The notes under the pieces: model-generated
Databases searched by the model: none
What the model was told of the DNA's origin: nothing
Seen by the model: only the letters and a program-made list of their open reading frames with translations
Position numbers and translations under genes: made by a program
Shown: piece by piece, positions 2,664-53,662 of the stretch
Layout: every line of letters starts with the position of its first letter
How positions within the stretch are numbered: the first letter of the stretch is position 1
Source of the DNA: Cyanidioschyzon merolae
Taxonomy: Eukaryota
DNA: 64,000 nucleotides
Direction: 5' to 3' (one strand)
Assembly (NCBI GenBank): GCA_000091205.1
Contig: AP006495.2

Positions 2664-3710
2664 GTGCAAGGGGTAACTAGACACAGTGTTCTCGGAGTGC
2701 AAGCGCGGAATCGTGCTGGAATGGCGAACATAAACGGGAACGCAGGGCTTGCTTGGCGTGGCACGGACAAGGGACCTGCTGAGAGGTCTGCGCTGAACGT
2801 CGGCGCAAGCACTGGTCTACCTGCGTGGTTGCTGCTCCCGGAACACGTTTGGTTCCGGATTTTCTGGTGGGCATCCGCAGAAGGCAATGACTTAGCGTGG
2901 CTGAGCCAGACTGCCGCCTTGGTTTGCACTCAATGGAACTATCTCGTGCGAAAAGTTGTATATCCCCGGCTGGTACGCCTGAACCTGACGAGCATCGAAC
3001 ACCAATGGAAACGCTGCCGATTGCGTTTGCGAGCGTCAGAAGAAAATGCTGAGGTTATTCAGGAAACGGATAAGCACATAGCCGGTTTCCTTGAGCGCCT
3101 CTTCAGAGACTGTAGTTGTGCCCGCTGTCTCGTTGCGACGGACTGCTACCGGCTCGTGCGCGACAGCGTGGTGCAGCATATTCACGTGTATCCACCACGT
3201 TTAGTGGAGCTGCATTTCTCCAATTGTGCGCTACTCTCGGACGTAGGCGTTGGTTTCATGCTGCAACGCATAGCGGCGCACCAGGCTGGGGAACAAACCT
3301 GGATTCACACGCTGACGTTCTTCGCCGAGAAGCTCACGAGCCGCGCGGCAGCCGAGATTGCACGTCGTTGCCCTTTTCTGCAGCATCTGGAGTTGCAGTA
3401 TGCTCGTCTGGACGACGAAAGTCTGCGCGAACTCGGAAAGCTCAGATTTCTGCGACAGCTCAAGGTGCGCGGCTCCGAGGCAGTCACTGACGCGGGGATC
3501 ACGTACTTGGCGCATCTGGAGTTCCTTGACATTGCGCTCTGTCCACAGATAACCGACCGAGCACTCTTCACTCTCGCTCATAGTGTACATTTGCGCAGAC
3601 TCTTACTCGCGCATCAGCGGTACAACGTATGGTGTACTGGAAAGTGGACGGAAAGTGGGCTCAGTGCGCTCCGCGAGGCCGGCGTTGATCTTCACTTTAT
3701 CGATGTATAA
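2664..3710 (+). CDS. F-box / leucine-rich-repeat protein (FBXL-like)
   Basis: F-box-like LPEHVWFRIFWW...LVCTQWNYLV followed by LRR units (LRELGKLRFLRQLKVRGSEAVTDAGITYLAHLEFLDIALCPQITD). The real start may be the internal Met near 2721. Confidence 0.55.
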   Translation: MQGVTRHSVLGVQARNRAGMANINGNAGLAWRGTDKGPAERSALNVGASTGLPAWLLLPEHVWFRIFWWASAEGNDLAWLSQTAALVCTQWNYLVRKVVYPRLVRLNLTSIEHQWKRCRLRLRASEENAEVIQETDKHIAGFLERLFRDCSCARCLVATDCYRLVRDSVVQHIHVYPPRLVELHFSNCALLSDVGVGFMLQRIAAHQAGEQTWIHTLTFFAEKLTSRAAAEIARRCPFLQHLELQYARLDDESLRELGKLRFLRQLKVRGSEAVTDAGITYLAHLEFLDIALCPQITDRALFTLAHSVHLRRLLLAHQRYNVWCTGKWTESGLSALREAGVDLHFIDV

Positions 3711-4093
3711 TGAGGCCTCCAGTCCGCAGTGATGCACGTGCGTGATACGACGTCGTTATGGTAAGCGATAGAATGACTGGGTCTAAACATCATGGAAGCA
3801 TATTTTTCGACCCGATGCGACGCTTGGGCAGCTGCATGCAACGTTCGCACAAGCGTCATCCGCAAGGACCCCATCCGGGACGCAATGTACGATTCCCAGA
3901 CGCTCGCCCAGGATCGTAGGGTACTGCGCAGATAACAACGATCACGCGCTGGTACGTAAGTGTTGCGTCGTGCACGACCGACGGGCTGCTTTGTGAATGG
4001 TACGCATCGCAGTGTGAGCGTCTATTCGCGGAAAGGCGTTTCAGCGCAGCATCGAGCTGCAGCCGCTTCTCTGAGCAAGCAAGCATGCGACAT

Positions 4094-4441
4094 CCATGAC
4101 GATGCAGGCTATGGCATGTGTCCCATGTATGGTGGGTCTTATAGTCGGCGTCCACAAAAAGATAGCCGATTCCCTGCCGATGATACATCCGCTGTGTAGG
4201 AGGGTGTCTCCATGACGATGCAGGCTATGGCATGTGTCCCATGTATGGTGGGTCTTGTAGTCGGCGTCCACAAAAAGATAGCCGATTCCCTGCCGATGAT
4301 ACATCCGCTGTGTAGGAGGGTGTCTCCATGACGATGCAGGCTATGGCATGTGTCCCATGTATGGTGGGTCTTGTAGTCGGCGTCCACAAAAAGATAGCCG
4401 ATTCCCTGCCGATGATACATCCGCTGTGTAGGAGGGTGTCG
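4094..4441. repeat. 116-bp tandem repeat x3 (minisatellite)
   Basis: Unit ccatgacgatgcaggctatggcatgtgtcccatgtatggtgggtcttgtagtcggcgtccacaaaaagatagccgattccctgccgatgatacatccgctgtgtaggagggtgtct starts at 4094, 4210 and 4326 with 1-2 mismatches. It generates the overlapping ORF artefacts 4041-4476. Confidence 0.9.
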
Positions 4442-4501
4442 GTGTTCCGTGCGCATTGCGAGCGCGACGCTGTCACGACATATCTTCCGGGAGGCGTCTC
4501 T

Positions 4502-5683
4502 TCAGGAAGCGGTCTCGCTCATGCTTCCCTGGAGTGCGCCTTCTACGAGGTATTCCGCAATGGCCATCGACGATGTCGCTGCTGGCGATGGGGCGTTTCG
4601 CACGTGCACAACATTCCGATGGCGCTCGAAATGAAAATCATTTAGAAGCGTGCCATCACGGGTTAGCGCTTGTGCTCGAACACCGTAGAATGAGCGTTCA
4701 AGGTCGTGTGGACCAAGGTCTGGCACCATGCCACGCAGCGCTCGCCAGAGCGCGAGCGGCGCGTTTTCTTGCCACCATTGGCTCAGGCCGAATCGCCAGT
4801 GCTGCTGTACGAGCCGCCAAAAGCCCGGGTACTGAATTGGTGGCCATCCAGCCAGGGTTGCTGTTGGCCCAACCCATACGCGACGCCCATCAACGGAAGG
4901 CGTGAAGTGAACGCCCGCAAACGGGTAACGCTTGTCTGGGACCGGGTAGATGTTGCATCGGCTGAGCCCCAAGCGCTGGATTGCGTCGGGACGAAGCTCG
5001 AAATACTGGCCCTTTACCGGAAGAATGCGCAGCTGCGTCGTCGGCAGCGTGCTCCCGCCAACACATACAAAAACCCAGTCCCAATGCTGATACCAGGCTC
5101 GCGCGTCTACCGCCCATCGCGGGTGTGTCTCTGCGTCTGGTTCGAGTGCTCTCAGTGGAACCTCAGTGCCCAAGCGTAGGGTAAAGCGGTCACCTAGGCG
5201 TTCAGCGGCATCTGCGACAAGCGCTCGGGCGAGAGCCGGATAGTCAATCACTCCAGTATTCGGCGAATAGAGGCTTCGCACAGCACGAACACTTGGCAAG
5301 GGGACGCCATCGAGGAGCTCCAGCCCCTGAACGCCGTTCGCCACTGCGTTTGTAAAGATTTCGGCCAGTCGTCCAGCCTCAGCTTCGTTCCGCGCGACAA
5401 TGTACTTGCCCGCTCGTCGTACAGGAACTCGTTGCCCTGCGGGCGACTCGCAGAACTCGTAGATGTGACGTGCACCCAGGACGCAGAGACGACCTTTGAA
5501 CGAGCCGGGCGCGTAGCCGATTCCGGCGTGTATAACACCGGAGTTGTGACCGGACTGTTCTCCTGCTATGTGTTGCGACTTTTCAAAAACTTCCAATCGG
5601 GTGACCAAACCAGTGTACCGGGTAGCGAAGTAGTGTGCCGTTGCGACGCCGACGAGTCCGGCGCCTACAACGGCGACTCGCAT
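4502..5683 (-). CDS. L2HGDH: L-2-hydroxyglutarate dehydrogenase-like FAD-dependent oxidoreductase
   Basis: Rossmann start MRVAVVGAGLVGVATAHYF. Motifs GHNSGVIHAGIGYAPGS and C-terminal NAPSPAATSSMAIAEY match the L2HGDH/LhgO family. Confidence 0.75.
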   Translation of the reverse strand: MRVAVVGAGLVGVATAHYFATRYTGLVTRLEVFEKSQHIAGEQSGHNSGVIHAGIGYAPGSFKGRLCVLGARHIYEFCESPAGQRVPVRRAGKYIVARNEAEAGRLAEIFTNAVANGVQGLELLDGVPLPSVRAVRSLYSPNTGVIDYPALARALVADAAERLGDRFTLRLGTEVPLRALEPDAETHPRWAVDARAWYQHWDWVFVCVGGSTLPTTQLRILPVKGQYFELRPDAIQRLGLSRCNIYPVPDKRYPFAGVHFTPSVDGRRVWVGPTATLAGWPPIQYPGFWRLVQQHWRFGLSQWWQENAPLALWRALRGMVPDLGPHDLERSFYGVRAQALTRDGTLLNDFHFERHRNVVHVRNAPSPAATSSMAIAEYLVEGALQGSMSETAS

Positions 5684-5766: not shown

Positions 5767-5782
5767 AAACAAAAGCGAGGTG
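5767..5782 (-). terminator. RNA polymerase III T-run terminator for tRNA-Ala
   Basis: Immediately 3' of the tRNA the minus strand reads CCTCGCTTTTGTTTT. A TATATAAA element lies ~45 bp 5' of the tRNA, at 5912-5920. Confidence 0.5.
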
Positions 5783-5870
5783 TGGACGTGAGGGGAATCG
5801 AACCCCTGGCCTTGACAATGCTAATGTCACGTCGGGTACTGCAGCAGTCATACCACTTGACGACACGCCC
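5783..5870 (-). tRNA. tRNA-Ala(AGC) with a ~16-nt non-canonical intron between D-arm and anticodon arm
   Basis: The reverse complement folds as acceptor GGGCGTG/CACGTCC with a G3:U70 wobble (the Ala identity element), D-arm GTCA-AGTGGTA-TGAC, anticodon arm TGACA-TTAGCAT-TGTCA (anticodon AGC), variable AGGCC, T-arm AGGGG-TTCGATT-CCCCT, discriminator A. The 17 nt TGCTGCAGTACCCGACG lie between the D-stem and anticodon stem, i.e. N26 plus a 16-nt intron. Confidence 0.7.
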
Positions 5871-11792: not shown

Positions 11793-12215
11793 GAATACAA
11801 TCATGCATAAACGTGTGAATTCTAGTATACATTCTCGTAAGAATACAATCATGCATAAACATGTGAATTCTAGGATACATTCTCGTACGAATACGATCAT
11901 GCATAAACGTGTGAATTCTAGTATACATTCTCGTAAGAATACGATCATCCATAAACGTGTGAATTCTAGTATACATTCTCGTACGAATACAATCATGCAT
12001 AAACGTGTGAATTCTAGTATACATTCTTGTACGAATACAATCATGCATAAACGTGTGAATTCTAGTATACATTCTCGTACGAATACGATCATGCATAAAC
12101 ATGTGAATTCGAGCATACATTCTCGTAAGAATATAATCATCCATAAACGTGTGAATTCGAGCATACATTCTCGTAAGAATATAATCATCCATAAACGTGT
12201 GAATTCGAGCATTCG
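11793..12215. repeat. 48-bp tandem repeat x~8.8 (AT-richer minisatellite) in divergent promoter region
   Basis: Unit gaatacaatcatgcataaacgtgtgaattctagtatacattctcgtaa begins at 11793, 11841, 11889 and so on. Each unit carries GAATTC and CATGCATAAAC. The array lies between the 5' ends of the aminotransferase (-) and the PLGG1-like gene (+). Confidence 0.9.
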
Positions 12216-18655: not shown

Positions 18656-19450
18656 ACAATTAGCTAGGCGCACGCACGGATGGTTCACAGCGAGCATGCA
18701 ACCCTGTATGGTTGTGGGCCTGATCGCAGCTCGACTGCCGTAGACGTGGAAATCGGTGCTCGGGGGAACGCCTCGGATTGAGTCCCGGCGAACTTGGCTG
18801 CTCCTGGGCAGCGTCAAGGCCTCGAGTTCCGACACCTGTTGCGTATCGATGTGCAGAGCTGCGCGTACGGAGCGCGAGACTCTTCATAAAAGCGCTCGAC
18901 GCATGCGAGTAGGGGCATGTGCGATCGTGCTTGCAGGCGTTGGAAGTATGCATGAAAGCTCCCTGGGAAGCGGATTAGTGAGACTGTCCACCGCATCGGG
19001 GAATGCAGATCTTCGAACCGAATCCAGATTTGCGTCTTCTGTGCTATGATGAAAGCTGGAGGTAGTGTTTCAGAGGCATTGCGTTTTGCCGAGGTACACG
19101 CGGGCTTCCATCTGCACCCTGCTGCCGTGCTGGTGGGAACTGAGGTACCGCACTCGGAAGTCGATGCAGCATCGTCTGGGGCTGGTGTGAATATGCGGCC
19201 TGGGTGCCAGTGCATCAACCTTCTGATGCATAACATGGTTGGCAGCGGAGGTTGCACCGGATTCATTGCTGGACACTGGCGTTTGACATACGCATGTTCG
19301 GGAATTTGGCGCAGGCGCGCATCGATGCAGGTATCAGTCCAATGTACTTGATATACGCATGTTCGGGTATTTGGCACGAGCGTGCACCGATCCGGGTACC
19401 GTTCCGATACGCGTTAACCGAATGCGGCGTTGGGGCGAGCCAAGCGCCTG

Positions 19451-19765
19451 CACTGGAGATGCCTATCAGTTGGCGATGCGGTCGCAAAAGAGCGACGCAG
19501 CTTAAACAATGTGCACTGGAGATGCCTATCAGTAGGCGATGCGGTCGCAAAAGAGCGACGCAGCTTAAACAATGTGCACTGGAGATGCCTATCAGTTGGC
19601 GATGCGGTCGCAAAAGAGCGACGCAGCTTAAACAATGTGCACTGGAGATGCCTATCAGTTGGCGATGCGGTCGCAAAAGAGCGACGCAGCTTAAACAATG
19701 TGCACTGGAGATGCCTATCAGTAGGCGATGCGGTCGCAAAAGAGTGACGCAGCTTAAACAATGTG
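19451..19765. repeat. 63-bp tandem repeat x5
   Basis: Unit cactggagatgcctatcagttggcgatgcggtcgcaaaagagcgacgcagcttaaacaatgtg starts at 19451, 19514, 19577, 19640 and 19703. Copies 2 and 5 carry a T-to-A variant. It produces repeat-derived ORFs on both strands. Confidence 0.9.
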
Positions 19766-20699
19766 CATTGGGGACAGCTGCTGATGCGAATTCGTTCTGG
19801 AGCTCGCGATGCCGAGTGCTCATGGGTACAGAATCTCGGGTCTTGTCCTATGACTGCTCATCGCCGTACAAATGCTTCTGATCCCGGATCATTTACCATG
19901 CGCATGACGATCGTCAAGGCCGGTAGTTTGAGTGCTCCAAAGCTCCGCGGAGCACATGGACATCTTCCCCAGAGCGCTAACGCATGTGGCACGCGGCCTG
20001 AGTCTGTTCGTGTTGTTGACATCGATCACAGCTGTTTTGCTCGGAGCATGCTCGTTCACGCTAGGTTTGCGAATGCATCGAGTCGGGAAAGGCGACGACT
20101 GGTGCAAATTGCTTGGCGTGCTCCCTGCTTGCCGGATTCTAGCCTACGTCAACGGATGAGCGCGCACGACCCTGAGCCGCTCAGTGAGTATGAAAAGCGA
20201 ATGGCATCCTTTCTAGGTCATTTTCTCGTTCCAAAGGTATATATGGATGCATGCAGAACTTGGGCCAGTTCGTCTCGTGAAATGTACCATCGACTTGGCG
20301 CTCCTGTTCTGAGCCGGTCGCCCGATGCGATCACGAAAGCATTTGCGTTTTGGCCCTGCAAATGATGGTGCACTCGTTCGATAGGCAGCGGTCTGAAGCA
20401 AGTGCCTGTCCGTGCGCACAGGCTGACACAGACCCGGTTCATATACGTAAGCCGTCCCGAGCGCCCAACCCGGTCTCACAACGGCGGAGGCGTGTAGCGT
20501 CGAGCAGTCACTGCGGTTTAAAAGCTGTGCGTTCAAGTCAGAGGCGTCTTCGAGCACCAGGGCAGAGGGCGCGCTGGAGAGGCACTTAGCAGTTGTGATC
20601 GATGTATCGTGAGCGTATGACAAGGAAGCCAAAGCCTTCCTGCGGAAAACCCAAGAAGGATATTTTCCTATGATCACCAGCACTCATACAGTGGAGACA

Positions 20700-27553: not shown

Positions 27554-30099
27554 TGAGCGTTGGATCGCTGCACGTGGCGCAGCAACACGTTCAGGCATTC
27601 TCGGAAGCGAGGTTTCAAAATTCTTTTCCTTCCAGCAGGCCGTGTTACATACACTGCGTCGAGCTTCAGTTTTGTTATCGCACGAATCTTTTATCGAAAG
27701 AGTCCGGAAGAATATGGACGGATGTGAGCCCCGTATCCGGAACACCCGTGAACTGTAGATTGACGTGCAGCTTCAAGTATCGGACAGCTAGAAGGGCGTT
27801 CGGCGAGCGAGAAGCCTTGCGAGCGCGCATGGCGCCGTTCATCTCATTTTTTGGAAGAGTCTGCAGGTTGATGTGTGTCACAAGGGAGGCCCTTACCATG
27901 GTATCAGCCTGATCTTTCCCCTCCGGCAGCTTTTCTTTCCCTGTAACCCATCGTCCTCTATTCAGGAGCATCTTTCTCTTCTTTGCAAGGTGCGCTCTTT
28001 CCTTCCTCATTTACTTGGCGCTGTGGCTTGGATACGTTTTCCAGACTCCATATCTGTTTTCTTCCGGGGAATTCAGACGCACAGGATGGAGAATACGACT
28101 GAAATTCGCCGATTCTGTTTATGCGTCAAAGATTTGTCAAATACATGTTCATCACCGTGTCCGTGGTGAGCGCACCAAGTAACTGGAGCGCACCTGTCTG
28201 CAACCGCCCGCGCACGAGCAAAGAAGCAAGAAACCTGTTCGGCACTGGAGAAGTGAAAGAAAGATGTGGCGAAAAACGATGCCACGGATGCAAACGACTC
28301 GTCCATTGATCGTTGAGCGTCGAACTAGGGTTTTACAACAGATAAGAGGCATTGGACTGGATTGAACCAGGTAGAACAGGCTGGCTCGAATAGCAGCTGA
28401 GCGCCAATCGCAGCTGGTTACTCGTTGCCCGCTTTTGACTGATGGAAACCCACGTCATCTAAGAGCGGAATAGCAGAGTGTGGAAAGCACGTACCACGAA
28501 GCATGCGTCGACGACGGATGAGGTATTCAAAGATGCCTCACAGTTGGCGATTTGGAAGCGGTCACATGATTGAATCCCCGTTGGCGTTCATGTTGTCATG
28601 ATGCTCGCTTTTCTCTCGTTTACGAACAGCGGTTTGCCGCTCTTTGAGCATTCACATGCAGTTCTACCATTTCTTCCGATTAGAGTCTGATCGTGTTAGA
28701 GGAACACCCGCCCATAGTTTAAAACGCTCTCGTGCTCATGGGAAATCGGTCTCATGTTGTTCAACGAGCGACGGTCTCCCACAGAGCCGAGGTTTTTTTC
28801 TACGTCTATTTCGAGTCTGCATGTAAGCGTTCATGTGAAAGGTACAGAAACTTTGTGTTTAATCGCTTTTTGGTGACATTTTTAGGGAATGTAAGAAGCG
28901 GAATGGACCGAGGAACAAACAGTGGCATAGATCGAGTTTGATTGCTTCAGTTTCCCGTGTACGACGTAAAGTGCAACGACTGTGGCATAGGCGGTTCATC
29001 CATCCGCCGACCATAGAATAACTGACTTTGACGAAAGAGACAGTATTTTCACAAGTTAGCCGCGACAGGGTAGAGTACATCAAATACCCACCTGGAGTCT
29101 ACAGGATATATCCATGTATTGAACAAGTGCGAGAAAAACGAACAAGACAAAAACGGCTTGCAGGTAGAGATGTTCTCAAATTCACTGTTTTAAATAGAAG
29201 AACTTGCGCTCCACCATATCAGAATAAAATGAAGCGGGTCTTCTGATACGGACGTATAGACTAGAGATTGGGTCGTTGCCCGATTTCATCGAAACCAGTC
29301 TTTGTGGACTTGTTTCGCAACTGTCTCATATTGCTCTCTTATTCCAAGCTTTGAATAGGGCTGGCTCCTTTGTTCCTCCAGCTCGATTCGTACTTAGAAT
29401 CAGGAGCTTCTTCTCGACCATCTTCTCAGCGAGTACGCTGTCAGCTGCATGCGCGAGCGCACATTGTACCATTTGATAGCGGACTTGTGCATCATGATGT
29501 TTTCCGTGATGAAACAAGTACGAGAATGAGTTTCCAGGTTGGATATTAATTGAAGATATTTCGATCCATTTACACTTGCTTCGGGCAAATCGTTGGTACA
29601 CGTTCCGCTGCAAGCGATTGCTGCGGTAACTCTAGACCGAGTGCAAGACCCTCGTCAATGCAAACAGGAGAGTCGGGAGCCTCTCCGAGCGGTATCCCGA
29701 AATGAGGTATCATGCTGGTACAAAATACCATTTCGTCAATGGTCAAATAGATATGAATCTTTGTCTTTCGAACGAAATCGGTGGTTTGCAGAGAGTCCTA
29801 CAGAGCACTTCCGGCATGATCTTGTGAGCAACTCGTCAAAGATTGACGTCGAGCGTTTACCTCTTCAGTCCTATGGCGCGAATCGCTGCGACTACGAGTT
29901 GTCTTGGAAATGGTGGACAGAAAATTTGGCGCATGCGCGATATGAGCATACAACAGGTATAAAACGGAGAAGAATCGCGGCTTTTTCATAAGAGTAAGAT
30001 ACCAATATCGATTGGGTTACGAACTTTTGCATACGTACGTCGCGAATCATCCTGACCCCAGTGACGGAACGAATGCCACGTGCAGTGTCGATAGAGCAG

Positions 30100-30325
30100 C
30101 CCCCCCCCCCAAAACGACAGGGAAACATCCGAAAACGACATATGAATCCGTACGCCCTCCTAGCCGAAAATGGGTTATCGAGGCTGTACATCCGAAAAAA
30201 AATGTCCGGAAAAAAAAAAAAAAACCTGGAACGGAGCGATCAGCCCAAAAATCCATAGGAATCTGAAACGACTGGACAATAGTTTCGCCAACTGCCTCGC
30301 CCCGAGTCCGCGACATACGCAGAAG

Positions 30326-30356
<31 letters not shown>

Positions 30357-30360
30357 ACAC
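30100..30360. repeat. low-complexity cluster: poly(C)11, poly(A)15, (CA)~17
   Basis: cccccccccc at 30100-30110, a15 at 30220-30234, and cacacacacacacacacacacagacacacac at 30326-30360, all upstream of the probable start codon at 30407. Confidence 0.9.
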
Positions 30361-33538: not shown

Positions 33539-33584
33539 CAAAGTTTTTTTCGGATACGACAACATGCCCGACTGCGACAACAAC

Positions 33585-33956
33585 ATCTGGCCTTTGCATG
33601 CTAGTCGCCAGCTCACCGTGAATGCAAACCCGACCCCGATGCTCCATACATATGCAATCTGTTCCGAAAAGAAGACCATCTGGCCTTTGCGTGCTAGTCG
33701 CCAGCTCACCGTGAATGCAAACCCGACCCCAATGCTCCGTACATATGCAATCTGTTCCGAAAAGAAGACCATCTGGCCTTTGCGTGCTAGTCGCCAGCTC
33801 ACCGTGAATGCAAACCCGACCCCAATGCTCCTTACATATGCAATCTGTTCCGAAAAGAAGACCATCTGGCCTTTGCGTGCTAGTCGCCAGCTCACCGTGA
33901 ATGCAAACCCGACCCCAATGCTCCTTACATATGCAATCTGTTCCGAAAAGAGTACC
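33585..33956. repeat. 93-bp tandem repeat x4
   Basis: Unit atctggcctttgcgtgctagtcgccagctcaccgtgaatgcaaacccgaccccaatgctcc.tacatatgcaatctgttccgaaaagaagacc starts at 33585, 33678, 33771 and 33864. It begins ~45 bp after the stop codon at 33538. Confidence 0.9.
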
Positions 33957-40991: not shown

Positions 40992-41356
40992 ATGCACGCG
41001 AACAAACCTGCGCGCAACGATAAACCTAGCGCCTGCAGCTCAAACGAAACGTCCCGCCATCGACAGCAATTGCAGCACGCAGCGCAGGTTTACGGACGCG
41101 AGCATGCACGGCACTAGAAGCGATTCGGCATCCGTGCCGCCCCGTGCCTACCCTACATGCGCGTCGGCGACAGGGTGAACGCGCGAGCACGTGCCGTACC
41201 CCAGCCGTTAGCAACGAATCAGCGCCGGCGCCGCGCTCATTCGCGCGCATCGTCGGGCGCAGCACCTGCATGCGTGCGCGCACGTGCATCGCATGGAGCT
41301 GCGGCCACGTACAACGTGCCACGTGTCCATGCATCGTGCACGTAGCCGGGCGCTAC

Positions 41357-41420
41357 GTGCTGCTGCTGCTGCGGCGGCGGCAGCGGCGGCAGCGGCGGCA
41401 GCGGCAGCGGCAGCGGCAGC
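41357..41420. repeat. (GCN)~20 trinucleotide repeat (GCT/GCG/GCA)
   Basis: gctgctgctgctgcggcggcggcagcggcggcagcggcggcagcggcagcggcagcggcagcg. It sits between the 3' ends of convergent genes and yields poly-Ala artefact ORFs. Confidence 0.9.
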
Positions 41421-41670
41421 GGGCACCCCGGGATCATCAGGTGCCGGCGGCAGCGTACCGCAGACCCGTGGGCATCGACGGCACATCCGACGCGCCACGC
41501 CTCTAGGTGGCATCGAGCGTTCGCGACTGCCGCCGCCGCCACGCAGTGTCCTGGTGCCGGTGTGCACGCACCGACGGCGGCTGCCAGGAGCGTCTGCCGC
41601 GTCGTCTGCGACGTGCCGGTTGCGGTTGCCGGCTCGTTGACGGTAGGCGCGCCGCTGGCGCCAGCCCGAG

Positions 41671-44600
41671 TCAGGGCGCGGCACGCTGTAGCGCATCCGC
41701 GCGCAGCACCAGGCCGTACACGTACGGGCCGCGCACTCCGCCGTGTGCGTGTCGATCCCACTCGCCGGTGACCTCCAGGTTCAGTATTTTGCTGAAAAAT
41801 TGTTTGATTCGGTAAATTCTGAGCGGCTCCCGATGAGCGGCACCTTGACCAGCCCGTGGTGGTGCACTGTATCGATTGAAGTGGTCTTTGAGATTCCGTA
41901 AACGTACGAAATCCGTGCTCTTGGGGTTTCGGCGCACATTCTCTGTGATATCGTAGTGCTGGAGAAGGAAACCCGCGAATCGGGCGTACGCGTTATCGCT
42001 CCGGTGGATGCGCTCCAGCAGTTCGAGTCGTTCGCTCCGGGTCTGGGGCGGCTCGACGTCTCCCAGACCCTCAAGGGTGATCGGTGCTGTGCGGTCGCTC
42101 GAGGCCGACGAAGAGCGCACGTCGAGACTTTCGCCACTGGCGCCTTGCTCGAGCCAGCGGCTTCCAGCGGGGGCACGCGTTGCGTCATGGTGCAAGGCGC
42201 TGGATCCGGGAGCAGGAGCCTCATTCGGGGCGGATCCATCGCGCGTTCGCTGCTGGGCCGGTGCTTGCGGTGCGGCTGCAGCACCGGACGCTCTTCGCTT
42301 GGTTTTCGCTGCAGATGATACGCTGCCCGCTGTATCATGTTCTAAGCGCTGCGTAACTCGCGCGGCAGCCACCGCGGGGAACCTCTCTGGCATCGTCAAG
42401 TCAGGGTTGGTGCAAACGCCTTCGTCAGCTAGTGCACGTTTCCGTCCAGCTCTGTCCTCTAGATACCGCGCAGCTTCGCCATTATCGTACCGAGTCGAGG
42501 TCGATGCCGGCATCGCGCCGGGTCGCCGGTGCACGCTCGCATCCTCAGCTGCCGACAACGACGGACGCTCATTGATAAGCGCCCACGAGGCAGGTGCGGA
42601 AACGCTGGTTTCGGGTCCCAGCGAATGACCCGGTGCTGGGCGAGGCATGGCGCCCGGTTCTCCGGACTCGAACGCAAAAACAGACCCGGGCAGGTTGGCG
42701 TTCAGCATCGATCGAGTACCCATCGGCTGCGACTGTGACCCCGGTAACGTGGCGGTGCCTCGTGAACTGCCTCGACCGTGGCCCGCCCCACCAGTATGGT
42801 GCAGCAACAGCGGCGATGCGCTCGTGGTACCTGGATCAACCGCCGCGTTGGGCGTGCGCATCATCTGGCCGGGTGACAGGGCTGCCGCCGCTCCACCAGC
42901 CGTCACAAGCGATCGGCTTCCCGACGTCGACACATGCACCGCGGACGACGGATGACTGGCGTTTGGCGCTACAATGCCGCTCAGGCTACTGAGATGCTCC
43001 GTCGGAGGCGCGCGCATAAAGTCAGGATTTGTTCCCGGGACTCGTCCAGTGGGCTCCATGATCGAGCCGCGTGCAAGTGGCGTGGTTGCACCAGCAGACA
43101 AGAGTGCATGAAACGAATCGACGCGGTGCAGTTTCTCGGTGTAGGAATCTTCATCCACGCTACTTGGAGCTCCCACGACGACCTCGGGTATGCTGCGGTC
43201 GGAGCCGCCGCCGCCGCCGCCGCCGCCACCACCAACGCCGCTGCTGCCCATGCCCATGCCGCTCGAAACAAGCGCCATTTGTTGGTTCCCAAATGTGCCC
43301 GCACTCACACCGTACATCAAAGAGGAGCCTCCGTTTCCGCCACCTGGTCCCTGAGCGTAACCGTTACTGCCGCCAAGACCCGGGGAAGGCCCCGCCAGCT
43401 GCGCGCCATTCGCCCCGCTCGCACTGCCGCCCAGATCAAAAACGTTGTGCAGCGGATCGTCTTGGCTCATGGACCAGACCCGTGGGAGCAGTCCAACATG
43501 ATCGCCTCCGATCGAATCACCAGCTATTTCCTGATCATCGATGCTGGCGTCGCTATCTCGCATGGGACGCTCAGGCTGCCTTCCGCTAGGTAGTTCGTGA
43601 CCAAGATCGCTCAGCCCGAAGAGGTCTTCCTGTTTAGAATCCAACACGTTGTAGACCTCATCAATGGGCCAATCGCTCATGAGTTCCTGAGTCCCCTTCA
43701 GCGATAGCGTATTCGGGACCCGCACACCGTAGCCGCGCTTGTTCAGCACAACTTGGCGAAGGTATCGAAGCGCGTCCCGGGCTCGGCGACGTGCTACCCG
43801 ATTCTCGACAACCGGTCGCGGATAGGTGACACCCAGTTCAACCCTAGCCTGATGCAGAATCGTCGGAGGGCATTTCCACACCGCATGGATGTAGCTACTG
43901 GGGATCTGTTGCAACTCTGGACACCAGGTACGCACGTACTCACCCTCGGGGTCTACGCGCATGCCCATCACGACTGGGTTCACGAGGCAATTCAAGGGGA
44001 AAACGTCGTAGTTGCAGCCCGTCACCCACTGCCAGCAGATCGCGTTGCTCGCCAGATCGCCATCGATGAATAGTTTGAAGAGGCAACGAGCCCCGATCTG
44101 CCACGGCAGGAGAAGGTACTTGGTAAAAAAAGAAGCTACAAGAAACCGCAGATTCGAATGCAACCAGCCGGTGTGGTGCAGTTCCCGCATTGCCGCATCA
44201 ACGAGTGGGTAGCCCGTGCGTCCCGAGAGCCACACCTCGAGGAGACGGCCCACATCTTCCTTGGTGCATGGAAAATGATCAAATTCTGGCACCAGTGGTC
44301 TATCCAGGATCGATGGTCGGTAAAATAGCATATGATAAGCGTACTCGCGGAGGCAGAGGTTTCTCAGGAGCGTTCGAGCAGCCCGAATTATTGCATCTGA
44401 TGGCTCAGACTGCAGTACAGACGCCCGAACAGCGTGGTAGAGGCGCCGCGGTGACAATTCTCCGAACCGTAGGTACGGCGAAAGCCGTGATGTCCCGTTT
44501 CGGAGACGCTGTCGTCTTCGAGCGTCCCCATACGTCGGAAAGACACTCGTCAAGAAGTCTTGCAGGCGCTCTGCTACACAATCCACGCCGGGGCGCCAGT

Positions 44601-45348
44601 ACTCCTCAAGGCTGCCTAAGTTGTGTATCTGGTTCCACCAAATTCCCATTTCAGTGTCGGTATCCTCGCCGCCGGGCGACTGCAGCACATCCGACGGTTG
44701 CATCGTGGACTCGGGCACAGCGAACAGAGGCCCCTGATCTCCCGACTGGGAGGCAATGAGCGGCTCTATTCGCTTAGGTGCAGGCAACGGCTCTGGGGGT
44801 GGTGGCATAGCCATCCACGCTGACATGAACTCGTGGAAGGTGTCGAGCGGACGGTCCCCAAAGCTCGCGGGCCTGCTCTCTGTTGCACAAACCTCCCACG
44901 GCTCGACCAGGAGCTCCGCCTTGAAGGACTCAACAGCCAGGCGGTGGTGCTTCGACCATCGCCGCCGCACTTCCTCATCTCTGCGTAACACAACAGGGTC
45001 GTAGACCCGATTCCAGTACACAGCCTCGGCACCGCAGCGTTTCACGACCTCCAGAAGCGTCGTCTCGACGCCGCCGCCGCCGCCGCTTTCCGACTTCGCA
45101 CGCCTCAGAATTAACCCGGTTTCGCAACCTAGCTCCCGAAGTCGTCGGTCAAGTGCAACAATGGAACGACTCAACCACCAACGTGCCGGTCGGCCGAGAC
45201 ACCACATACCGTCCTCTTCGGGTGCCCAGATGAACACCGGCACCACCGGGCCTCCGCGCTGCACGGCAGCAAGCAACGCTGGCATGTCCTCAACACGGAG
45301 GTCGTGGCCGCGGTACCACACAACCGAAGGTCGTCTCGACGACGACAT
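41671..45348 (-). CDS. cryptochrome/photolyase family protein, plant-CRY / class III CPD-photolyase-like, with ~650-aa low-complexity C-terminal extension
   Basis: N-terminal VVWYRGHDLRVEDMPALLAA...PVFIWAPEEDG...GRPARWWL is like plant CRY1 (IVWFRRDLRVEDNPALAAA...VWAPEEEG...GRVSRWWL). FAD-binding region GRTGYPLVDAAMRELHHTGWLHSNLRFLVASFFTKYLLLPW...DPEGEYVRTWCPEL...IHAVW. The C-terminal half is rich in Gly, Ser, Ala and Pro. Confidence 0.85.
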   Translation of the reverse strand: MSSSRRPSVVWYRGHDLRVEDMPALLAAVQRGGPVVPVFIWAPEEDGMWCLGRPARWWLSRSIVALDRRLRELGCETGLILRRAKSESGGGGGVETTLLEVVKRCGAEAVYWNRVYDPVVLRRDEEVRRRWSKHHRLAVESFKAELLVEPWEVCATESRPASFGDRPLDTFHEFMSAWMAMPPPPEPLPAPKRIEPLIASQSGDQGPLFAVPESTMQPSDVLQSPGGEDTDTEMGIWWNQIHNLGSLEEYWRPGVDCVAERLQDFLTSVFPTYGDARRRQRLRNGTSRLSPYLRFGELSPRRLYHAVRASVLQSEPSDAIIRAARTLLRNLCLREYAYHMLFYRPSILDRPLVPEFDHFPCTKEDVGRLLEVWLSGRTGYPLVDAAMRELHHTGWLHSNLRFLVASFFTKYLLLPWQIGARCLFKLFIDGDLASNAICWQWVTGCNYDVFPLNCLVNPVVMGMRVDPEGEYVRTWCPELQQIPSSYIHAVWKCPPTILHQARVELGVTYPRPVVENRVARRRARDALRYLRQVVLNKRGYGVRVPNTLSLKGTQELMSDWPIDEVYNVLDSKQEDLFGLSDLGHELPSGRQPERPMRDSDASIDDQEIAGDSIGGDHVGLLPRVWSMSQDDPLHNVFDLGGSASGANGAQLAGPSPGLGGSNGYAQGPGGGNGGSSLMYGVSAGTFGNQQMALVSSGMGMGSSGVGGGGGGGGGGSDRSIPEVVVGAPSSVDEDSYTEKLHRVDSFHALLSAGATTPLARGSIMEPTGRVPGTNPDFMRAPPTEHLSSLSGIVAPNASHPSSAVHVSTSGSRSLVTAGGAAAALSPGQMMRTPNAAVDPGTTSASPLLLHHTGGAGHGRGSSRGTATLPGSQSQPMGTRSMLNANLPGSVFAFESGEPGAMPRPAPGHSLGPETSVSAPASWALINERPSLSAAEDASVHRRPGAMPASTSTRYDNGEAARYLEDRAGRKRALADEGVCTNPDLTMPERFPAVAAARVTQRLEHDTAGSVSSAAKTKRRASGAAAAPQAPAQQRTRDGSAPNEAPAPGSSALHHDATRAPAGSRWLEQGASGESLDVRSSSASSDRTAPITLEGLGDVEPPQTRSERLELLERIHRSDNAYARFAGFLLQHYDITENVRRNPKSTDFVRLRNLKDHFNRYSAPPRAGQGAAHREPLRIYRIKQFFSKILNLEVTGEWDRHAHGGVRGPYVYGLVLRADALQRAAP

Positions 45349-49457: not shown

Positions 49458-50308
49458 TCAGCCGCATACGGATGCGTCTTCGACGGCGCAGTCCAGGACC
49501 CGAACTCCTGGTTTGTGTGCTTCGTGGTACATGTAATCATCACGGTTTGTTGAGTAGGGGAAGAGGGGCAGGATTGCCTCGTCATGAATTTCGTTCGTGA
49601 AGTCGGCGAAGCCTACGTAGAACGCAAGCGACCCGGCAATGATCGCGCGTGTTGCTGCCGGGTACTTGACACCACTCGCAAACGTTGTAATGGCCAGCAT
49701 GAGGTATATTAGACCGACGAAAAAGACGGTAAGACTCAAAGCGTACTTCGTTCTCAGTGCCTGGGCACAGAGCATTGGGAAACGACGCAGTAAATTACGC
49801 AGTAAATGAAGGTACCTGCTCTATCGGTTGCGGGGGAGCGACTCGGATTGAGCAGCTCCACCAGAAGCTGTATGTCACGAGCGCCCCAGAATACGCTGTA
49901 GATCGAAAACGCGGTTGCGCAGAACAGGTTATCATATCGGAAACACCACATACCGGCAATGAACTGATCAAGATCGCCAGTGATGAGCGCAACCGCGAAC
50001 AGGTTCTTCGCGGTGGTCCCGTGTAAGTCCACGTCCACGAGAAGCGTCGCGATACCGAACGACCGGAGACCACGTGGCGCCGGATTCGCCGCAGCACTCA
50101 CGTGCTCGACCACGGAAGAGTGCTGCTTGAGCGCGTCAACCAACGGGGACTCGCGAGCCGCTGCGTCACTGTTTGCCGATGAAAAACCTCCGCTTCGTTG
50201 CGCAGCGGCATATGCAGCGAACTTTACGCCCTGATCCAGGCTAGGGACTTCCGTACTGGACCGAAGGGCGTGCGAGAGGGATTCACCAAGTGATTGAAGC
50301 GCAGCCAC
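49458..50308 (-). pseudogene. GPR1/FUN34/YaaH (acetate transporter, AceTr) family paralog disrupted by a frameshift
   Basis: ORFs 50308-49754 and 49775-49458 together align with the downstream paralog: NPAPRGLRSFGIATLL signature, then DRAGTFIY..., then in another frame LCAQALRTKYALSLTVFF.... The junction region is 50 nt where the paralog has 51 nt, a 1-nt deficit. A 12-bp direct duplication tttactgcgta/atttactgcgtc sits at the junction. Confidence 0.55.
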
Positions 50309-50654
50309 TTGCTACTCGAGCTGCTGAGCCTCTGAACGCAGGTTTTCATTTTCCGTTGCCAGTTTATTCCAATAACTCGCCCGTGCACTACGAAGGACCT
50401 ATTACAGGTTCGCGCCACGCGTAAACTACAATACAAAAACTATGGTACGCAGATTATGTTTCCCGAAAGATACATGCATGCCGTATCTGCAGTCGATCGC
50501 ACGGTCGGTGTTGAACGAGATCAATGTGTCCCGGGTACACGACGAAAAGCGTCCTGCTGCTCTTGGCGTGCAGCAGGACGTCCGGGCGTCGAAATGGTAT
50601 CCCATCCGGAACCGAACGCGCCCTCAACTTGGACGCATCGAAATCGTTTTCCCC

Positions 50655-50872
50655 AGTGAACTGCGACTTCGCGTGTCCGCTGCGGAGGCGGAACGTGGGT
50701 TCAGTCCAATACCTTCCATTTCTGTTCTTCTAGGGAGAAAAGTGGCATCTTGGACTTACATCCAGTGAACTGCGACTTCGCGTGTCCGCTGCGGAGGCGG
50801 AACGAGGGTTCGGTCCAATACCTTCCATTTCTGTTCTTCTAGGGAGAAAAGTGGCATCTTGGACTTACATCC
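50655..50872. repeat. 109-bp tandem duplication x2
   Basis: Copies at 50655-50763 and 50764-50872 are near-identical: agtgaactgcgacttcgcgtgtccgctgcggaggcggaacg.gggttc.gtccaataccttccatttctgttcttctagggagaaaagtggcatcttggacttacatcc. Confidence 0.9.
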
Positions 50873-50946: not shown

Positions 50947-51867
50947 TCAAACAGGCGGGATATCGACGGCGCTCTTATGAGCATGCGGCCGAGGTACGTA
51001 CCGCTTGCCTTCTTCGTAGTCGCGAGCGTGTCGCGGATGTGGAAACAAAGGAATCAGCGGTTTCTCATATATTTCGTTGGTAAAGTCTGCTAGACCCACG
51101 TAGAAAGCGAGCGATCCGGCGATGATCGCACAAGTCGCTGCAACGTACTTGACGCCCTCCACGTATGCAGTAATTGCTAGGAAAATGTACACGAGGGCGA
51201 CAAAGAATACCGTCGCGCTCAAGGCGTAATTCATTCGCAGTGCTTGAACTAATAGAATCAAGGTCAGGATGCAAAATATCACATAAAAAATACAGGTTCC
51301 CGCGCGATCAGCGGACGGGAAAAGTCCCGGATGGAGCAGCTCCACTAACAGCTGCACGCCACGCGCACCCCAGTATGATCCGAACAGGGAAAAAGCCGTT
51401 GCGCCGAACGTATTGTTCCGCCGGAAACACCACATACCCGCGAGAATTTGTGCCAAACCCCCAATAATGAGCGCCACAGAAAAAGTGTTTTTAGCAGTCG
51501 CACCGTACAGATCAGCACCGGCTAGCAGCGTCGTCACTCCAAAGGCAAACAGACCAAGTGGCGTCGGGTTCGCCACCATACTAGCCAGGGAGATCACCTG
51601 GGACTGTTGCTGTAGCGCGTCCAAGATCTGCATACTGTCTCGATGATGAATTTGCTCCTCTAGAGAAAGGCTCATATTTCGATCGTTTTGCGAATCGAAA
51701 CGCGCAGCCAGGCACTTGTGAGCAGCGCAAGCCTCGAACTCGCGTGCCGCGGCAGCCGCACCCGCCGCTACCTTTTGTTGGAGCGCGGTCACGCGCTCTT
51801 CCAAGAGGCTGATCCTCTCAAGCAAGGAAAGATTTCCCAAGTCCGCGTCGGTCATCAGGAAACGCAA
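50947..51867 (-). CDS. GPR1/FUN34/YaaH family acetate/monocarboxylate transporter (AceTr)
   Basis: Family signature NPTPLGLFAFGVTTLL. Six hydrophobic segments. The N-terminal coiled-coil region LSLLERISLLEERVTALQQK is typical of eukaryotic Ady2/Gpr1-like members. Confidence 0.8.
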   Translation of the reverse strand: MRFLMTDADLGNLSLLERISLLEERVTALQQKVAAGAAAAAREFEACAAHKCLAARFDSQNDRNMSLSLEEQIHHRDSMQILDALQQQSQVISLASMVANPTPLGLFAFGVTTLLAGADLYGATAKNTFSVALIIGGLAQILAGMWCFRRNNTFGATAFSLFGSYWGARGVQLLVELLHPGLFPSADRAGTCIFYVIFCILTLILLVQALRMNYALSATVFFVALVYIFLAITAYVEGVKYVAATCAIIAGSLAFYVGLADFTNEIYEKPLIPLFPHPRHARDYEEGKRYVPRPHAHKSAVDIPPV

Positions 51868-52984: not shown

Positions 52985-53662
52985 GTGGACAGCATGCAGA
53001 AATCTAGTTTTATATGGGCGTTGATTTTCGGTGTGTTCGCACTATGGCTCCAAGTGCCTAGTGTCCAGGCTTGGTCGTACACCATGACACCGTTGTACGA
53101 GTTCACGCCTACGTGCACGCCGACGCCAATGTGTACGCCCACACCCACTTGTACGCCGACGCCGACCTGCACACCCGTCTTCGAGCCAAAGCACTATCAC
53201 GAGTACGTGCTCTGTGGCGACTATACCCAGACTGGAGACATTGAAAAATGTGAAAAATACGGATGTCGCTGGATTCCGACCAATTACTGCGGACTGGAAA
53301 ACGAATGGGCCCAGTACAAAGGCGTCTGCGTGGTGATCCCGAACAAGGCCCCCGAATGCCAGAATATTCCATACTTCAAGCGCATCAACTGCGGATACGA
53401 TGGAATCACGCCGCATGAGTGCGCCGAGCGCGGTTGCTGCTGGGAAGGCGGCCCGAATCGTTACAACTGGTGCTACTACCCTCGCAAGTGCCGCGATGTC
53501 TGCGTCGAGGAGGTCACAGCCGAGGGAGAAGTCTGTGTGGAATGGACCAAGCCCAAAGGTTACGGCAAGCAGGAAGAGAAACCGGTCTGCATCAAGTGGA
53601 AGCCCAAGACCAAGTGCCTCAAATACGTCAAAGAATGCAGTGACGAGTGCTACAAACCCTAG
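52985..53662 (+). CDS. secreted cysteine-rich protein with a trefoil (P-type) domain and Thr/Pro-rich linker
   Basis: N-terminal signal peptide MDSMQKSSFIWALIFGVFALWLQVPSVQA. Mucin-like PTCTPTPMCTPTPTCTPTPTCTP. RINCGYDGITPHECAERGCCWEGGPNRYNWCYYP fits the trefoil pattern [KRH]-x2-C-x-[FYPSTV]-x3-[ST]-x3-C-x4-C-C-[FYWH]. Lys/Cys-rich C-terminus. Confidence 0.65.
   Translation: MDSMQKSSFIWALIFGVFALWLQVPSVQAWSYTMTPLYEFTPTCTPTPMCTPTPTCTPTPTCTPVFEPKHYHEYVLCGDYTQTGDIEKCEKYGCRWIPTNYCGLENEWAQYKGVCVVIPNKAPECQNIPYFKRINCGYDGITPHECAERGCCWEGGPNRYNWCYYPRKCRDVCVEEVTAEGEVCVEWTKPKGYGKQEEKPVCIKWKPKTKCLKYVKECSDECYKP

What the first reader, a model, noticed from the sequence alone, without database searches (positions are those of the whole stretch)
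4094..4441. 116-bp x3 minisatellite at a convergent gene junction, and a recurring pattern of tandem repeats between convergent 3' ends
Three of the convergent gene pairs in the window have a tandem repeat sitting exactly in the short space between their stop codons. The 116-bp x3 array lies between the F-box gene (stop 3710) and the L2HGDH-like gene (stop 4502). The 93-bp x4 array lies between the TEL2-like gene (stop 33538) and the sigma factor gene (stop 34781). The (GCN)~20 repeat lies between the coiled-coil gene (stop 40991) and the cryptochrome gene (stop 41671). Such placement would suit terminator, insulator or replication/recombination-pause elements. It could also just reflect tolerance of repeats where no promoter is present.
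Basis: seen in the sequence. Interest (0 to 1): 0.5.

Follow-up and report, generated by a model that had tools for sequence, protein, structure and literature searches.

The report
Ordinary copy-number-variable minisatellite in red alga

Summary
The window is Cyanidioschyzon merolae 10D chromosome 13. The array is confirmed at 4093-4440: 116 bp x 3.0, one mismatch in 348 bp. It lies between the stops of an F-box-like/LRR gene (3710) and an L2HGDH-type gene (4502).

It is one of five mutually unrelated minisatellites in the window. Two lie in convergent spacers, one in a divergent (promoter) spacer and two in same-direction spacers. Five of eight convergent spacers have none.

All five arrays, and the GCN microsatellite, differ in copy number among roughly 99%-identical environmental contigs. 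For the 116-mer I found 1, 2 and 3 copies in seven variant-repeat haplotypes.

The syntenic junctions in the sister genus Cyanidiococcus carry no repeat, and the spacer cannot be aligned. The units share no motif, fold no better than shuffles, have no G-runs and have no dispersed copies. The 116-mer contains no UAAA poly(A) signal.

Best reading: a neutral or near-neutral VNTR inside the predicted L2HGDH 3'UTR. One post hoc lead remains: three of five arrays start 45-75 nt after a stop codon (P about 0.002). This needs a genome-wide test.

The parts
4093..4440 (.). 116-bp x 3.0 minisatellite (units 4093-4208, 4209-4324, 4325-4440). The array is exactly three units long, with no microhomology at its edges.
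   Evidence: TRF. Unit listing. Copy numbers 1, 2 and 3 and seven variant-repeat haplotypes in environmental contigs.
4441..4501 (-). 61-nt segment between the L2HGDH stop codon and the array. It has no UAAA, so the mRNA is predicted to run into the array.
   Evidence: UAAA as the poly(A) signal is taken from PMC8831791.
4502..5683 (-). L-2-hydroxyglutarate dehydrogenase/oxidase-type FAD oxidoreductase (BAM80947.1). This is the gene whose 3' flank carries the array.
   Evidence: Pfam DAO, 2.6e-44. Exact match to the C. merolae 10D protein.
2721..3710 (+). LRR protein with a sub-threshold F-box-like match. It is the convergent partner. Its likely poly(A) signal TAAA is at 3784-3787, 309 bp before the array.
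3696..3699 (-). First UAAA on the L2HGDH sense strand downstream of its stop, about 805 nt away and inside the last codons of the LRR gene.
33584..33951 (.). 93-bp x 4.0 minisatellite, starting 45 nt after the TEL2-like (CMM071C) stop and ending before the first TAAA on that strand (34107). Three environmental contigs carry 2 copies.
41247..41422 (.). GC-rich trinucleotide/hexanucleotide microsatellite between the coiled-coil and cryptochrome stops. It is 18 or 24 bp shorter in environmental contigs.
11793..12206 (.). AT-rich 48-bp x 8.6 minisatellite in the DIVERGENT spacer between the aminotransferase and LrgB-like genes. One 38.9-kb contig has 13.75 copies, and another has about 1.75.
19449..19771 (.). 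63-bp x 5.1 minisatellite in the 3.5-kb same-direction spacer after citrate synthase. Each unit carries a TAAA on the + strand. Environmental contigs have 2 or 1 copies.
50653..50872 (.). 109-bp x 2.0 repeat starting 74 nt after the GPR1/FUN34 stop, upstream of a frameshifted paralog. Three contigs have 1 copy and seven have 2.

Best explanation
The 116-bp x 3 array is a young, locus-specific minisatellite (VNTR) in the 3' flank of the L2HGDH-type gene of Cyanidioschyzon merolae, most likely inside that gene's 3'UTR. A 116-bp piece of ordinary spacer was duplicated in tandem. The array has since gained and lost units, by replication slippage or unequal or out-of-register homologous recombination (this mechanism is inferred). 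It persists because extra length between a stop codon and the poly(A) site costs little. It is one of about one minisatellite per 13 kb in this window. These arrays are unrelated to each other and occur in every type of spacer. Its only predictable effect is to lengthen the L2HGDH 3'UTR by 116 nt per copy. Shown here: the array, its copy-number and variant-repeat polymorphism, its restriction to one locus, and the absence of any repeat at the orthologous junction in the sister genus. Inferred: the duplication mechanism, neutrality, and transcription of the array as 3'UTR.
For: Identity of the window: five window proteins match C. merolae 10D exactly, on a contig of 866,983 bp, which is chromosome 13. 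Array: TRF, 99% matches. Polymorphism: contigs that are about 99% identical in the flanks carry 1, 2, at least 2.5, or 3 units. The unit-level haplotypes are {consensus}, {76G}, {10A,25G,76G}, {consensus,76G}, {68T,consensus}, {consensus,consensus,68T} in 10D, and {consensus,76G,27A+68T}. The last has three distinguishable units, so it is safely assembled. The {68T,consensus} order cannot be a collapsed form of the 10D order. The other four minisatellites and the GCN tract are also polymorphic. The 2-copy allele of the 93-mer has a junction that does not exist in 10D, so it is not an assembly collapse. Locus-specific: no other copy in the window, and a metagenome-wide exact scan hits only this locus. 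Not conserved: the syntenic Cyanidiococcus yangmingshanensis locus and a related lineage have spacers of similar size (764-791 bp) with no tandem repeat and no alignable sequence. The sigma/TEL2 and coiled-coil/cryptochrome junctions in the sister lineage also lack repeats. No functional signature: no k-mer of 7 or more is shared among units, folding z-scores run from -1.2 to +2.3, there are no terminal inverted repeats, and there are no Rfam hits. 3'UTR placement: there is no UAAA between the stop and the array, in the unit, or anywhere in the spacer on the L2HGDH strand. UAAA precedes 93% of primary cleavage sites in this species (PMC8831791). Tandem-repeat density in the window is 14 TRF rows with score 50 or more in 64 kb. 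That equals the genome average of 3,335 Ensembl TRF features in 16.5 Mb (PMC11050394).
Against: Neutrality is not demonstrated; no expression or 3'-end data were available. Three of five minisatellites begin 45-75 nt after a stop codon, which uniform placement rarely gives (P=0.0016, post hoc threshold). Placement may therefore not be random within 3' regions. Single-copy 'alleles' from short-read metagenome assemblies could in part be collapsed arrays. Several contigs break at the arrays. Absence of UAAA over 791 nt is expected by chance 18% of the time, so the 3'UTR assignment is a prediction.
Confidence: 0.75

Rival explanations
1. Regulatory VNTR: the arrays are tolerated because they sit in 3'UTRs, but copy number measurably tunes mRNA 3'UTR length, stability or poly(A)-site choice. 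This would give heritable expression variation, as unstable promoter repeats do in yeast.
For: Arrays A116, D93 and E109 all lie between a stop codon and the first UAAA on that strand, so each copy should lengthen the 3'UTR by 93-116 nt. Each unit of the 63-mer carries a UAAA. Alternative polyadenylation is frequent in this species (63% of genes, PMC8831791). Copy number varies in nature. There is a stop-proximal excess, P=0.0016 post hoc.
Against: No expression data. The units lack conserved motifs or structure. There are no arrays at the orthologous sites in the sister genus. The sample is only five arrays.
Confidence: 0.15
2. One reading: the arrays are dedicated terminator, insulator or replication/recombination-pause elements placed between convergent 3' ends to prevent transcriptional collision.
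For: Three convergent pairs do have a repeat between their stops. In yeast, AT-rich repeats in the 3'UTRs of convergent and same-direction spacers coincide with polyadenylation elements and are conserved (PMC4393290), so the idea has a precedent.
Against: Five of eight convergent spacers lack one, and there is no enrichment (P=0.30; Fisher test P=1.0). The same kind of array occurs in divergent and same-direction spacers. Copy number falls to one in wild alleles. Repeats are absent from all three orthologous junctions in the sister lineage. There is no UAAA in the 116-mer on either strand. The sense strand is C-rich rather than G-rich and has no G-runs of 4 or more, so it carries no R-loop or G4 signature. 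It forms no stable hairpins.
Confidence: 0.07
3. The repeat is something else in disguise: a transposon- or MITE-derived satellite, a hidden protein-coding or small-RNA gene array, or an assembly artefact.
For: Metagenome gene callers place a 122-aa ORF over the single-copy unit.
Against: No dispersed copies exist in the window or in the scanned metagenome collection. There are no terminal inverted repeats. 116 is not a multiple of 3, and both strands of the unit contain stop codons, so no frame stays open through the array (read directly from the sequence). There are no Rfam or tRNA hits here. The 10D sequence is a finished genome (PMC1955436), and an independent 10.6-kb environmental contig also has three units.
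Confidence: 0.03

Closest known systems
Classical minisatellites / VNTRs with internal variant repeats (human MS32 or CEB1 type; yeast intergenic minisatellites)
   Same: Head-to-tail units of tens to about 100 bp, very high identity between copies, locus-specific, copy number polymorphic within the species, and alleles distinguishable by the order of variant units.
   Different: The arrays are short (2-14 units). There is no GC-rich, G-skewed core motif and no motif shared between loci. They sit in the compact spacers of a 16.5-Mb algal genome. Meiotic hotspot behaviour is unknown.
Yeast AT-rich tandem repeats in the 3'UTRs of convergent and same-direction spacers, which coincide with polyadenylation efficiency elements (PMC4393290)
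   Same: Tandem repeats located in 3' regions, often between convergent genes, and variable in length.
   Different: The yeast repeats are (TA)n-type microsatellites that contain the poly(A) signal and are conserved across Saccharomyces species. Here the units are 93-116 bp with about 52% GC, lack UAAA, and are absent from the sister genus.
Unstable promoter tandem repeats that confer transcriptional evolvability in yeast (Vinces et al. 2009, cited from my own knowledge)
   Same: The 48-bp AT-rich array at 11793-12206 lies in a divergent promoter spacer and ranges from about 1.75 to 13.75 copies.
   Different: This applies to that array, not to the 116-mer. No effect on expression has been tested.
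R-loop / G-rich pause-type Pol II termination elements and replication fork barriers at convergent genes
   Same: Only the position between two 3' ends.
   Different: No G-skew on the sense strand, no G-runs, no structure, no conservation, and variable presence.

Membership tests
Minisatellite / VNTR | Tandem head-to-tail repeats with a unit of roughly 10-100+ bp | tested here: met
   TRF period 116, 3.0 copies, 99% matches.
Minisatellite / VNTR | Copy number polymorphic among individuals of the species | tested here: met
   1, 2 and 3 units in contigs with about 99% identical flanks. Caveat: short-read assemblies may collapse identical units. However, the 3-unit L055 allele and the reordered L004 allele cannot be artefacts of collapse.
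Minisatellite / VNTR | Single locus, not a dispersed element | tested here: met
   No other copy in the window. The exact-match scan of the metagenome collection returns only this locus.
Minisatellite / VNTR | Non-coding | tested here: met
   The unit length is not a multiple of 3, both strands contain stop codons, and there is no Pfam or Rfam signal.
Termination / pause / insulator element between convergent genes | Present at most convergent junctions and enriched there | tested here: not met
   2 of 8 convergent spacers have a minisatellite (3 of 8 with the GCN tract). P=0.30 per available base. This covers one window only.
Termination / pause / insulator element between convergent genes | Conserved at orthologous junctions | tested here: not met
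   There is no tandem repeat at the L2HGDH/LRR, TEL2/sigma or coiled-coil/cryptochrome junctions in Cyanidiococcus-lineage loci L025, L026, L050 and L051.
Termination / pause / insulator element between convergent genes | Sequence signature: G-skew or G-runs on the non-template strand, or stable hairpins | tested here: not met
   GC skew on the sense strand is -0.12 (A116), -0.25 (D93) and -0.04 (E109). The longest G-run is 3. Folding z-scores are not below -1.3.
Termination / pause / insulator element between convergent genes | Transcripts or replication forks actually stop there | not testable with these tools
   This needs 3'-end sequencing, NET-seq or fork-pausing maps.
Poly(A)-signal repeat (yeast efficiency-element type) | The repeat contains the species' poly(A) signal (UAAA in C. 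merolae) | tested here: not met
   There is no TAAA on either strand of the 116-mer. The 63-mer at 19449-19771 does carry one per unit.
Transposon-derived satellite / MITE | Terminal inverted repeats and dispersed copies | tested here: not met

The most novel reading that the evidence does not exclude
Minisatellites in C. merolae are not scattered at random through permissive spacer. They arise or survive preferentially in the first ~50-100 nt after stop codons, upstream of the first UAAA. That would imply either a duplication mechanism coupled to 3'-end formation or termination, or selection on variable 3'UTR length. In this window 3 of 5 arrays start 45, 61 and 74 nt after a stop codon (permutation P=0.0016, threshold chosen post hoc).
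Probability: 0.12. Interest if true: 0.5.

Novelty: new member of a known kind. Interest (0 to 1): 0.2.

Why it matters
The finding matters little on its own: it is a typical VNTR in non-coding DNA. Two modest points are worth keeping. First, C. merolae is described as having an unusually simple, repeat-poor genome, yet every minisatellite in this window is copy-number variable among otherwise roughly 99%-identical wild genomes. These loci would therefore make cheap, high-resolution strain-typing markers. They are also places where short-read assemblies of this model alga break or collapse. Second, the stop-proximal placement, if it holds genome-wide, would be a testable lead on how tandem duplications arise near 3' ends. 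C. merolae allows precise copy-number editing by homologous recombination, so it is a good organism for that test.

Tried and rejected
- **Shared origin of the arrays:** blastn of each unit against the window, and a k-mer comparison. The arrays are unrelated and share no 7-mer.
- **RNA or DNA structure:** eight unit/strand folds, none better than shuffles.
- **ncRNA or tRNA in the spacer:** Rfam and ARAGORN find only tRNA-Tyr at 5782-5870.
- **Transposon origin:** no inverted repeats and no dispersed copies.
- **Conservation:** the spacer was blasted against the syntenic Cyanidiococcus spacers. Nothing aligned.
- **Literature:** searches for minisatellites or tandem repeats in C. merolae and for repeats at convergent genes. 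No paper analyses their placement in this species. The genome papers do not discuss them.
- **Failed look-ups:** the exact 10D TEL2 and citrate synthase proteins are not in the contig index. The 10D chromosome could therefore not be fetched, and no genome-wide census was possible.
- **Telomerase-RNA template:** Nozaki 2007 mentions a candidate on chromosome 13. There is no match in the window.
- **Coding potential:** a codon-usage scan found no extra genes hidden in the spacers that carry arrays.

Full report
**Where the window comes from.** Five long ORFs translate to proteins that match Cyanidioschyzon merolae strain 10D entries exactly. These include the L2HGDH-type oxidoreductase BAM80947.1, the TEL2-like CMM071C and a cryptochrome. 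All lie on a contig of 866,983 bp, which is chromosome 13 (chromosome length in PMC11050394). Further exact matches fix the Sm-D3, LrgB-like, citrate synthase, RRM and GPR1/FUN34 genes. From the ORFs, the Pfam hits, a codon-usage scan and the consecutive protein accession numbers I built a map of 19 protein genes plus one frameshifted GPR1/FUN34 paralog and one tRNA. The genes alternate strands often. This gives 8 convergent, 7 divergent and 4 same-direction spacers, 28.2 kb in all.

**The observation.** TRF reports a 116-bp unit repeated exactly 3.0 times at 4093-4440, with 99% matches. The copies differ at one base. The array lies in the 791-bp spacer between the stop of an LRR protein with a weak F-box-like match (3710) and the stop of the L2HGDH-type gene (4502, minus strand). 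It starts 61 nt from the L2HGDH stop and 382 nt from the other stop.

The window holds five minisatellites, not two. The other three are 48 bp x 8.6 at 11793-12206, 63 bp x 5.1 at 19449-19771 and 109 bp x 2.0 at 50653-50872.
- The 48-mer is AT-rich and sits in a divergent (promoter) spacer.
- The 63-mer sits in a 3.5-kb same-direction spacer.
- The 109-mer sits between GPR1/FUN34 and its frameshifted tandem paralog.

Five of the eight convergent spacers contain no minisatellite.

Convergent spacers hold 21.6% of possible insertion points. Finding two or more of five arrays there has P=0.30. Adding the GCN tract gives 0.12, and ignoring the pseudogene gives 0.11. Doing both gives 0.04, but only if equally strong microsatellites in other spacers are left out. 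Counted per spacer, a Fisher test gives P=1.0. The window's tandem-repeat density is 14 TRF rows of score 50 or more in 64 kb. That equals the genome average implied by the 3,335 Ensembl TRF features. So this window shows no detectable preference for convergent junctions, although 64 kb cannot exclude a modest genome-wide bias.

**The arrays are young and variable.** Environmental contigs carrying the same genes are about 99% identical to 10D, both in the proteins and in the spacers.

At the 116-mer locus they carry one, two, at least 2.5, or three units. At unit level I found seven haplotypes. One is a three-unit allele in which every unit is distinguishable (L055). Another is a two-unit allele whose variant order is the reverse of 10D (L004). 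Neither can be produced by collapsing the 10D arrangement.

The 93-mer has two units in three independent assemblies. Their junction does not exist in 10D, so that allele is real. The 48-mer ranges from about 1.75 to 13.75 units, the 63-mer from 1 to 5.1 and the 109-mer from 1 to 2. The GCN tract differs by 18 or 24 bp.

One caveat applies. Several contigs break at the arrays, and single-copy versions from short-read assemblies may in part be collapsed.

**The arrays are not conserved.** The L2HGDH neighbourhood is syntenic in Cyanidiococcus yangmingshanensis (75% protein identity) and in a related lineage. The convergent spacer there is of similar length (764-791 bp). It contains no tandem repeat and cannot be aligned with the C. 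merolae spacer. In the sister lineage's sigma/TEL2 region, the sigma/TEL2 and coiled-coil/cryptochrome junctions also lack repeats. The only minisatellite there (74 bp x 1.9) lies upstream of the sigma gene, in a divergent spacer.

**No functional signature.**
- The five units are unrelated and share no k-mer of 7 or more.
- None folds better than shuffled controls; z-scores run from -1.2 to +2.3.
- There are no terminal inverted repeats and no Rfam hit.
- A metagenome-wide exact scan finds the 116-mer only at this locus.
- On the sense strand of the adjacent gene the arrays are slightly C-rich and have no G-runs longer than three. This argues against R-loop or G-quadruplex pausing.

**Likely relation to transcripts.** In C. 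merolae, UAAA precedes 93% of primary cleavage sites, on average 17 nt upstream (PMC8831791). The LRR gene has a TAAA 74 nt after its stop, well before the array. The L2HGDH strand has none in the 61 nt before the array, none in the unit and none in the whole spacer. Its first is at 3699-3696, inside the end of the LRR gene. The 93-mer and the 109-mer likewise lie between a stop codon and the first UAAA on that strand. I therefore predict that these arrays are transcribed as 3'UTR and that each copy lengthens the UTR. This is an inference: a 791-nt stretch without UAAA occurs by chance 18% of the time.

**Best explanation.** The array is a locus-specific, recently expanded VNTR in the L2HGDH 3' flank. 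It is kept because extra length there is tolerated, and it changes copy number by slippage or unequal recombination. That mechanism is inferred from what is generally known about minisatellites. The terminator/insulator/pause reading is not supported.

**A residual lead.** Three of the five arrays begin 45, 61 and 74 nt after a stop codon. Random placement over the same spacers gives three or more within 75 nt in only 0.16% of trials. I chose the threshold after seeing the data, and the sample is five, so this is a hypothesis for a genome-wide test and not a result.

**Comparison with known systems.** The array meets every tested criterion for a minisatellite/VNTR. The nearest precedent for repeats between convergent genes is the AT-rich (TA)n tracts in yeast 3'UTRs, which coincide with polyadenylation elements and are conserved across species (PMC4393290). 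The arrays here differ in unit size, base composition, lack of the poly(A) signal and lack of conservation. I found no paper that discusses the placement of minisatellites in C. merolae.

**Verdict.** Interest is low (0.2). The practical value lies in strain typing and as a warning for assembly, plus one cheap genome-wide test of the stop-proximal pattern.

Noticed in passing
window 27900-30150: Gene-free block of about 2.2 kb with GC 0.42-0.52 (the window average is about 0.56), in the 4.1-kb divergent spacer between DCP1 and TEL2-like CMM071C. C. merolae centromeres are described as 2-3 kb regions of about 48% GC with no other pattern (Kanesaki 2015, as cited in bioRxiv 10.1101/096016). This could be the chromosome 13 centromere.
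   Followed up: partly
window 49458-50308 (-): A tandem paralog of the GPR1/FUN34 gene (50947-51855) split into two ORFs by a frameshift. Both ORFs hit PF01184. It is absent from the consecutive 10D protein accession numbers, and the same split appears in environmental contigs. It is probably a pseudogene.
   Followed up: partly
window 52994-53662 (+): Secreted cysteine-rich protein with a Trefoil (P-type) domain (Pfam 1.1e-12). Trefoil-like genes are reported as an oddity of Cyanidiophyceae, expressed in diploid cells (PMC13353863).
   Followed up: partly
window 4502-5683 (-): Outside the Cyanidiophyceae, the closest relatives of the L2HGDH-type protein are bacterial (Thermomicrobium and other Chloroflexota, 40-46% identity). 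This suggests a possible horizontal gene transfer.
   Followed up: no
window 5782-5870 (-): An 89-nt tRNA-Tyr(GTA) gene, long enough to contain an intron, lies 99 bp upstream of the L2HGDH start codon.
   Followed up: no
window 30326-30360: A (CA)17.5 microsatellite lies inside the annotated N-terminus of the 1122-aa TEL2-like protein. Most environmental gene calls for this protein are 1040 aa, so the annotated start may be too far upstream and the repeat may be in the 5'UTR.
   Followed up: no
window 11793-12206; L028 9222-9881: The AT-rich (33% GC) 48-bp array in the aminotransferase/LrgB divergent promoter spacer has 8.6 copies in 10D, 13.75 in a 38.9-kb environmental contig and about 1.75 in another. 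Many short-read contigs end inside it.
   Followed up: partly
window 19449-19771: Every 63-bp unit carries a TAAA on the + strand. The array therefore supplies five evenly spaced candidate poly(A) signals 850-1100 nt downstream of citrate synthase.
   Followed up: no
window 41671-45348 (-): The cryptochrome has a low-complexity C-terminal extension of about 700 aa. Environmental versions range from 1185 to 1225 aa, so coding repeats in it also vary in length.
   Followed up: no
L050 5184-5325: The Cyanidiococcus-lineage contig has its own 74-bp x 1.9 minisatellite about 290 bp upstream of the sigma-factor start, in a divergent spacer. It has no counterpart in C. merolae.
   Followed up: partly
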